Positions 43,504-43,694 of a stretch of DNA of 50,305 nucleotides are shown in pieces. The notes under the pieces are model-generated. The model was given only the letters and a program-made list of their open reading frames with translations, did not search any database and was not told the origin of the DNA. Numbering within the stretch: the stretch's first letter is position 1; each line of letters begins with the position of its first letter. Location of the stretch: NCBI GenBank assembly GCA_964016885.1, contig CAXHJY010001048.1:1-50305 (forward strand), written 5' to 3'. The position numbers and the translations under genes are program-made. This DNA is from Eledone cirrhosa (Eukaryota).

Positions 43504-43694
43504 ATAGGAACAAGTAAGACCCCGACGGCTGAGCTCAAGCCGTTTCGACGGCTAATTCTCAGAATTAGCCGTCGAAACGGCTTGAGCTCAGCTGTCGGGG
43601 TCTTACTTGTTCCTATTACCCACTCTACTACCCTAAGTATTGAGTACTTTGGTGCGTTATGGTCCACCTGGTTCCTTACCACATTTCCTTCGTT
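43504..43694 (+). mobile_element. Unclassified ~191 bp hairpin element, copy 1 (113 nt palindrome + 78 bp tail)
   Basis: 43504-43616 is self-complementary about C43560 with one G-T pair; the whole element recurs inverted at 47488-47682. Confidence 0.75.

What the first reader, a model, noticed from the sequence alone, without database searches (positions are those of the whole stretch)
43504..43694. Unclassified ~190 bp element ending in a branched, covarying 113-117 nt hairpin
Seen: architecture A-B-B'-x-C-C'-A' plus a 78 bp tail. The palindrome can fold as one 56 bp rod or as a branched form with inner hairpins AGCCGT-TTCG-ACGGCT, AATTCT-c-AGAATT and AGCCGT-CGAA-ACGGCT. Between copies both arms change together (GAACAAGT/ACTTGTTC vs GAACCAGT/ACTGGTTC) and the apex differs (C vs GTCC). 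It is GC-rich in AT-rich DNA and inserted at TA. Established: T/Y-shaped terminal hairpins with an adjacent unique segment are the layout of parvovirus/densovirus ITRs. Inference: a mobile unit whose arms are copied from each other or selected for structure; I cannot assign it to a known class.
Basis: partly seen in the sequence, partly recalled or inferred. Interest (0 to 1): 0.8.

Follow-up and report, generated by a model that had tools for sequence, protein, structure and literature searches.

The report
Back-to-back Penelope-type retroelement stub
This hairpin is two back-to-back copies of a very abundant 140-base repeat sitting in TA runs, not a virus end; it likely formed when a Penelope-type jumping-gene enzyme copied one short RNA twice from two fixed start points, an ordinary layout for such elements.

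Summary
The sequence is as described: a 113-nt palindrome plus a 78-nt tail (43504-43694), with a 94%-identical inverted copy at 47488-47682. The parvovirus-terminus reading fails. Public reads and contigs show a very abundant repeat (16,406 contigs in one run) whose basic unit is one arm. It has a fixed left end and two right ends 78 nt apart, both running into (AT)n. Each palindrome is a short unit and a long unit joined head to head. The joint varies (9 more types in 118 contigs, plus lopsided joints), and many units show no adjacent mirror arm. The branched fold is 17-26 kcal/mol worse than the rod and only mirrors one 6-bp hairpin. No Rep/NS1 or transposase gene was found. Inverted arm, one-sided tail and (TA)n target are the published layout of Penelope-like element (PLE) insertions. 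Two unrelated structures in this window share it, and the scan noted it before in other families of this genome. Likely mechanism: both ends of a cut (TA)n prime copying of one RNA. The parent element was not found. The unit holds only the 3' half of a hammerhead motif. Ordinary object; its fixed 5' end is the open question.

The parts
43504..43559 (-). Copy 1 outer arm: short unit (no tail); its 3' end runs into the (TA)4 at 43499-43506
   Evidence: short end at 43616-equivalent followed by (AT)n in 3825 reads of X24 and 98 contigs of X1
43560..43616 (+). Copy 1 inner arm: body of the long unit; starts a few bases inside the family's fixed 5' end
   Evidence: units without an adjacent mirror arm continue leftwards with the same few bases (about AATTTAGTC), then variable AT-rich DNA
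43617..43694 (+). 78-nt one-sided tail; its end runs into the degenerate (TA)n at 43695-43721
   Evidence: long end followed by (AT)n in 8446 reads of X24 and 255 contigs of X1
43567..43582 (+). 6-bp local hairpin; with its mirror image in the outer arm it gives the 'branched' fold
   Evidence: chance rate 6% per arm
43574..43596 (+). 3' half of a hammerhead motif: GAAA, 6-bp stem III with a palindromic loop, GUC triplet; no CUGANGA half
   Evidence: 0.4% of 5000 shuffles on one strand, 1.1% on either; noticed post hoc; no CUGANGA core in or beside either copy; no Rfam match
47488..47565 (-). Copy 2 tail, abutting the (TA)n at 47468-47487
47566..47622 (-). Copy 2 inner arm (long unit)
47622..47682 (+). 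Copy 2 outer arm (short unit), starting GTCC at the apex and ending in (TA)n
   Evidence: this apex type recurs in 8 contigs of X1 and 12 raw reads from 3 start places in X24

Best explanation
The structure is a head-to-head pair of a short and a long copy of a high-copy, non-coding repeat of about 140 nt lying in (TA)n runs, and it likely arose when a Penelope-like element (PLE) enzyme cut the TA run and both cut ends primed copying of the same short RNA from two fixed start sites 78 nt apart. Shown: the one-arm unit, its fixed left end, its two right ends in (AT)n, the recurrent and variable head-to-head joints. Inferred: (1) an RNA of the + strand with a defined 5' end is the template; (2) a PLE reverse transcriptase/GIY-YIG endonuclease acts on it in trans; (3) the two DNA copies run to or near the RNA's 5' end and are joined there, losing or keeping a few bases, or joined earlier at 1-4-base matches; (4) the unit is a leftover of a PLE terminal repeat or a retrozyme that kept half a hammerhead. 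The long hairpin is a by-product.
For: Unit and ends (laid on one arm plus tail): X24 22,379 of 12,467,656 records read; X1 16,406 of 16,285,364 contigs. Loose ends are (AT)n behind 43616 (3825 reads) and 43694 (8446 reads), and variable AT-rich DNA ending in the same few bases before 43560 (1847 reads; agreement 0.51). The same three ends appear in X5; X6 shows the same left end; X7 shows the left end and the long end. Joints (laid on the palindrome centre): 9 apex types besides the window's own in 118 X1 contigs, one more in X4 that keeps 11 extra bases of the 5' end, and 34 apex-spanning X24 reads with indels; 116 X24 reads have lopsided opposite-strand joints. Of the 7 lopsided joints from 43560, 3 land on ACT and 1 on TA, bases that match the unit's 5' end. 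Two unrelated structures in the window have the same layout: 223-bp arms with an 80-bp one-sided tail (34390-35350) and arms of 444 bp or more with a tail of about 36 bp (43722-45565). Published: inverted 5'-truncated copy, one-sided 30-40-bp tail and (TA)n targets in PLEs, with Naiad and Hydra families listed for Octopus (PMC8557442); head-to-head palindromic joints and microhomology 5' joints (PMC3846280); a purified PLE protein extends both DNA strands and starts at two internal RNA sites that bound the tail (PMC11167929).
Against: No sequence link to any PLE: of 17 short motifs searched in the stored (cut) supplement of PMC8557442, 15 had no match and 2 matched unrelated positions. No genome is held, so no full-length parent could be sought. 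The tail is 78 nt, twice the published 30-40. There is no CUGANGA core, and the unit's best fold hides the GAAA in another hairpin. Copy 1's arms differ at one common variant site, as two separate templates would (C is 72-82% of the family, T the rest); CpG decay after insertion would also explain it. Sharing the 43608 letter in both copies has a chance of roughly 0.08-0.15 on family frequencies. Many units have AT-rich, non-(TA)n DNA at the left end (1976 X24 reads, 119 X1 contigs), which twin priming inside a TA run does not explain by itself.
Confidence: 0.62

Rival explanations
1. Same PLE-type machinery, but one DNA copy folds back at the RNA's 5' end and primes on itself; the endonuclease then trims one arm and leaves the tail.
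For: Self-priming is the published reading of PLE palindromic joints (PMC3846280); tails have been ascribed to endonuclease resolution (PMC8557442). Lopsided joints on 1-4-base matches to the unit's own 5' end fit fold-back as well.
Against: It needs an extra step to end the second arm exactly at the short site, which is itself a very common end (3825 reads). Two start sites and extension of both strands were seen in vitro (PMC11167929).
Confidence: 0.18
2. A SINE-like or other non-PLE short element with an (AT)n 3' tail; palindromes come from separate insertions of one unit at the 5' end of another.
For: Fixed 5' end shared by two subfamilies; many units without an adjacent mirror arm; the arms of copy 1 differ at one variant site.
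Against: No tRNA, no Rfam family, no A and B boxes placed to fit either end. It does not explain why both window copies pair a short with a long unit, nor joints clustered within a few bases of both 5' ends in 118 contigs.
Confidence: 0.1
3. A fold-back MITE or a Helitron/HUH-type rolling-circle element.
For: A near-spacerless palindrome in TA resembles small fold-back MITEs (recalled); a hairpin about 10 nt from a fixed end on the minus strand recalls a Helitron 3' end (recalled).
Against: The unit occurs as a single arm without terminal inverted repeats; the tail lies outside the palindrome in both copies. On the minus strand the opposite ends start AG or AA, not TC, and the flank beyond the fixed end is not CTRR followed by T (Helitron rules recalled).
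Confidence: 0.07
4. Endogenous parvovirus or densovirus terminal repeats flanking a 4.2-kb genome, or a local inverted duplication of two copies.
For: The two copies face inwards with hairpins outermost, 3793 bases apart, a parvovirus-like size (genome of 5123 nt in PMC12297876).
Against: The DNA between is 61% microsatellite, with a fold-back, a LINE-like piece and a hammerhead-bearing end. Of 14 frames scanned from 32184-49457, none matched a viral or transposase Pfam family. No match in viral contigs for two patterns. Ten or more apex types instead of a flip/flop pair; thousands of contigs hold the unit.
Confidence: 0.03

Closest known systems
Insertion units of endonuclease-containing Penelope-like elements (Naiad, Hydra, Neptune, Penelope/Poseidon): inverted 5'-truncated pLTR plus one-sided tail (PMC8557442, passages and parts of the supplement; PMC3846280, passages)
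   Same: Head-to-head inverted arm, tail on one side only, (TA)n at the outer ends, no readable target duplication, variable joints with short matches.
   Different: No ORF or link to one found; tail 78 nt rather than 30-40; 5' end fixed rather than randomly truncated; only half a hammerhead motif.
Poseidon element of Anolis, in vitro mechanism (PMC11167929, parts 1-2 of 4 read)
   Same: Two fixed 3' ends that bound a tail; AT-rich target; both strands could be primed.
   Different: Nothing biochemical tested here; other host and clade; no protein identified.
Animal non-LTR retrozymes (PMC7229834, passages; bioRxiv 10.64898/2026.07.22.740005, part 1 of 5)
   Same: Short, non-coding, abundant, hammerhead-like letters, proposed PLE dependence.
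   Different: No complete hammerhead; no head-to-tail tandem joint among the 11 joints listed.
Parvovirus/densovirus inverted terminal repeats (PMC12297876, passages)
   Same: Terminal-looking palindrome with an adjacent unique stretch, inverted pair about 4 kb apart.
   Different: No NS1/VP genes, no flip/flop pair, rod-shaped perfect palindrome, unit occurs as one arm in very high number.

Membership tests
Penelope-like element (EN+) | ORF with telomerase-like RT and GIY-YIG endonuclease, or sequence continuity with such an element | not testable with these tools
   No genome held. No such ORF among 14 frames scanned. No motif match in the stored supplement of PMC8557442.
Penelope-like element (EN+) | Inverted 5'-truncated copy adjacent to the 5' end | tested here: met
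Penelope-like element (EN+) | Tail at one end only (published 30-40 bp) | tested here: met
   Two fixed 3' ends, but 78 nt apart
Penelope-like element (EN+) | (TA)n insertion bias | tested here: met
   (AT)n behind both ends; all four outer ends in the window
Penelope-like element (EN+) | Hammerhead motif in the terminal repeat (absent or partial in Naiads) | tested here: inconclusive
   3' half only; no CUGANGA; no Rfam match
Non-LTR retrozyme | Complete type I hammerhead in each unit | tested here: not met
Non-LTR retrozyme | Head-to-tail tandem units | tested here: inconclusive
   No such joint among 11 listed; contigs and digested reads could hide it
Parvovirus/densovirus ITR | Flanks NS1/Rep and VP genes | tested here: not met
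Parvovirus/densovirus ITR | Fixed terminal hairpin with flip/flop isomers | tested here: not met
   Ten or more apex types and single-arm units
MITE | Terminal inverted repeats bounding the whole unit, with target duplication | tested here: not met
   Tail outside the palindrome; single-arm units; duplication unreadable in (TA)n
tRNA-derived SINE | tRNA-like head with A and B boxes near the 5' end | tested here: not met
   (box-like matches lie on the minus strand and fit neither end)
Helitron | 5' TC, 3' hairpin plus CTRR, inserted between A and T (recalled) | tested here: not met
   Loose-end consensuses

The most novel reading that the evidence does not exclude
The unit is not a passive stub but a self-standing non-coding RNA parasite of PLE enzymes, a SINE-equivalent of about 140 nt with its own defined 5' end and no ribozyme core. 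It would be about the smallest sequence that carries both start signals for PLE copying, and so a ready minimal template for testing two-sided priming. A further, less likely twist: its GAAA-stem III-GUC half could be cut in trans when another RNA supplies the CUGAUGA half (split-hammerhead format recalled; no pile-up of joints at the predicted cut site 43596/43597).
Probability: 0.25. Interest if true: 0.55.

Novelty: new member of a known kind. Interest (0 to 1): 0.28.

Why it matters
As an object it is ordinary: one of many PLE-type fold-back insertions in this genome. Its value is as a compact record of a step still unresolved in print, how PLEs make head-to-head copies with a one-sided tail. 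Three fixed ends in about 140 nt, many subfamily variants and many independent joints let two-sided priming be told from fold-back by counting in an assembly. If the fixed 5' end is the start of its own RNA, it would be a minimal non-autonomous PLE passenger without a working ribozyme.

Tried and rejected
Whole-genome search: no genome held. Exact-pattern scans: viral contigs 0 and 0, prokaryote genomes 0, metagenomes 1 hit, a chance 22-base match inside a bacterial operon. Coding: the minus strand of the unit is open for 45 codons; phmmer over 1.84 billion proteins gave 4 weak hits, all unrelated repeat proteins. Rfam: only sub-threshold hairpin matches over 31000-50305, 0 on the single unit. 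ARAGORN 0. Structure selection on the single unit: z-scores -0.18 to 1.02 in 5 folds. The pile-up of X24 read ends at 43557/43563 lies at AATT and is taken as a restriction cut of the library, not an end of the element; it also hides most apex-spanning reads. No RNA holder was listed, which says nothing on expression. Summed contig depths were not used as copy numbers. Paper searches for this family found nothing specific: 0 papers; listings only, none on this repeat. Earlier-findings look-up by sequence: 0; near this place: 0. Dfam and Repbase are not available here, so a named entry for this repeat cannot be excluded.

Full report
Observation. Copy 1 has arms at 43504-43559 and 43561-43616 (55 of 56 positions complementary) and a 78-nt tail to 43694. 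Copy 2 lies inverted at 47488-47682 and is 94% identical. The fold is far beyond chance (z about -20). The branched form is 17 kcal/mol (DNA) or 26 kcal/mol (RNA) worse than the rod. It follows from one 6-bp hairpin in an arm, which 6% of 3000 shuffles also have, mirrored by the palindrome. The covariation is one site; at a second variant site the arms of copy 1 differ.

Setting. The window is animal DNA rich in (TA)n. It looks octopod from SINE pieces that I recognise from memory, and unchecked scan notes on this genome say the same; no call here names the species. No assembly is held, so the family was studied through public runs. One search listed 24 runs, 20 holding some of the stretch, from 14 studies; I laid 6 of the 24.

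The unit is one arm. On one arm plus tail, run X1 gave 16,406 of 16,285,364 contigs and run X24 22,379 of 12,467,656 records (0.18%). This points to thousands of copies or more (inference; X24 is a reduced-representation library). Loose ends define three fixed ends: (AT)n behind 43616 (3825 reads), (AT)n behind 43694 (8446 reads), and variable AT-rich DNA before 43560 that ends in the same few bases (1847 reads). Runs labelled with three other organism codes (X5, X7, X6; 10, 11 and 8 contigs) show the same left end and one or both right ends; whether this DNA is their own cannot be told. A second subfamily differs left of 43566 but keeps TTAG at the same distance (1781 reads). So each window structure is a short unit and a long unit joined at their 5' ends.

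The joint varies. On the palindrome centre, X1 shows 9 apex types besides the window's own in 118 contigs, among them that of copy 2. X4 adds one that keeps 11 extra bases of the 5' end. X24 has 34 raw reads over apexes with indels. Lopsided opposite-strand joints occur in 116 X24 reads; of the 7 from 43560, 3 land on ACT and 1 on TA. Units with no adjacent mirror arm are also common (119 X1 contigs, 1976 X24 reads). The ratio of the two forms cannot be given, because the library is cut at AATT beside the apex and contigs clip such joints. This refutes both a local duplication and a fixed viral hairpin with flip and flop forms (defined in PMC12297876, passages). The 3793 bases between the copies are 61% microsatellite, and none of 14 frames scanned matched a viral or transposase family.

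What it works like. Craig et al. 2021 (PMC8557442; passages; supplement searched, and part 24 of 59 read) describe PLE insertions with an inverted 5'-truncated copy, a 30-40-bp tail on one side and (TA)n targets, and list Naiad and Hydra families for Octopus. Arkhipova et al. 2013 (PMC3846280; passages) describe head-to-head palindromic joints and microhomology joints and propose self-priming. Frangieh et al. 2024 (PMC11167929; parts 1-2 of 4) show that a purified PLE protein cuts AT-rich DNA, extends both strands and starts at two internal RNA sites that bound the tail. Two unrelated structures in this window have the same layout (34390-35350 and 43722-45565). I first read the palindrome as a fold-back; I moved to two-sided priming after the 2024 paper and the scan's note e1-10351013. 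The scan has reported this pattern for other families of this genome and for other genomes; those notes are unchecked and are not counted as evidence.

Mechanism, most likely (0.62). A PLE protein binds a short + strand RNA and cuts a TA run. Each cut end primes copying, one at the short site and one at the long site. Both copies run to or near the RNA's 5' end and are joined. This gives the one-sided tail, (TA)n outside, shared arm variants and ragged apexes. The ends and joints are shown; RNA, enzyme and order of steps are inferred. Fold-back self-priming by the same machinery (0.18) fits the joints as well but needs an extra trimming step. Not explained by either: the many units whose left flank is AT-rich but not (TA)n. 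They may be arms of wider fold-backs with a spacer, or one-sided insertions joined after loss of target DNA; 30-letter loose ends cannot tell.

Ribozyme remnant. Positions 43574-43596 read GAAA, a 6-bp stem with a palindromic loop, then GUC: the 3' half of a hammerhead (0.4% of 5000 shuffles on one strand, 1.1% on either; noticed post hoc). Palindromic helix III is reported for PLE hammerheads (PMC4209133, passages), though usually only 1-2 bp long. The CUGANGA half is absent from both copies and from the left-flank consensuses shown. The unit folds no better than shuffles, and its best fold buries the GAAA. It is a hint of origin, not a predicted active ribozyme.

Membership and novelty. The layout tests for a PLE insertion are met. 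The defining test, continuity with an RT/GIY-YIG element, could not be run. Of 17 motifs sought in the stored supplement of PMC8557442, none tied the unit to a listed family; that file was cut when stored, so unseen parts may bear on this. Retrozyme, SINE, MITE, Helitron and parvovirus tests failed on a defining feature. Eight paper searches showed no description of this repeat; Dfam and Repbase could not be searched. Verdict: it works like a PLE insertion and is probably a non-autonomous stub or passenger; new member of a known kind; interest 0.28. The fixed 5' end, the 78-nt tail and the missing ribozyme core leave a 25% chance that it is a self-standing minimal RNA parasite of PLE enzymes.

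Noticed in passing
window 34390-35350: Unrelated fold-back: 223-bp arms (221 of 223 match), a spacer holding a direct repeat of about 200 bp, and an 80-bp one-sided tail, with (TA)n outside.
   Followed up: partly
window 43722-45565: Unrelated 1.8-kb fold-back: arms of 444 bp or more (439 of 444 match), a tail of about 36 bp on the left, sharing the TA run with copy 1's tail.
   Followed up: partly
window 47370-47468: Complete minimal hammerhead motif (Rfam HH9 28.5 bits, below the gathering score of 52) followed by AATAAA and ending in the TA run that also holds copy 2: a probable PLE 3' end of another family.
   Followed up: partly
window 32555-32580, 40585-40617, 41673-41714: Further CUGANGA...GAAA matches, candidate PLE ends.
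   Followed up: no
window 46100-46368 and 48610-49461: Inverted pair of a LINE-like 3' end (282 of 289 match); the longer piece has a weak DUF6451 match (E 2.4e-05, below cut-off). RTE type by recall only.
   Followed up: partly
window about 1000-30900: A 30-kb array of 27-36-bp AAC-rich units with open frames of over 4000 codons on both strands (18739-30948 +, 18427-31002 -); satellite or repeat-coding exon not resolved.
   Followed up: no
window 38842-39085: Small fold-back with 82-bp arms around mixed microsatellites.
   Followed up: no
loose ends behind 43554: A second subfamily with a different 5' part of equal length (1781 reads in X24, 112 contigs in X1, 8 in X4).
   Followed up: partly
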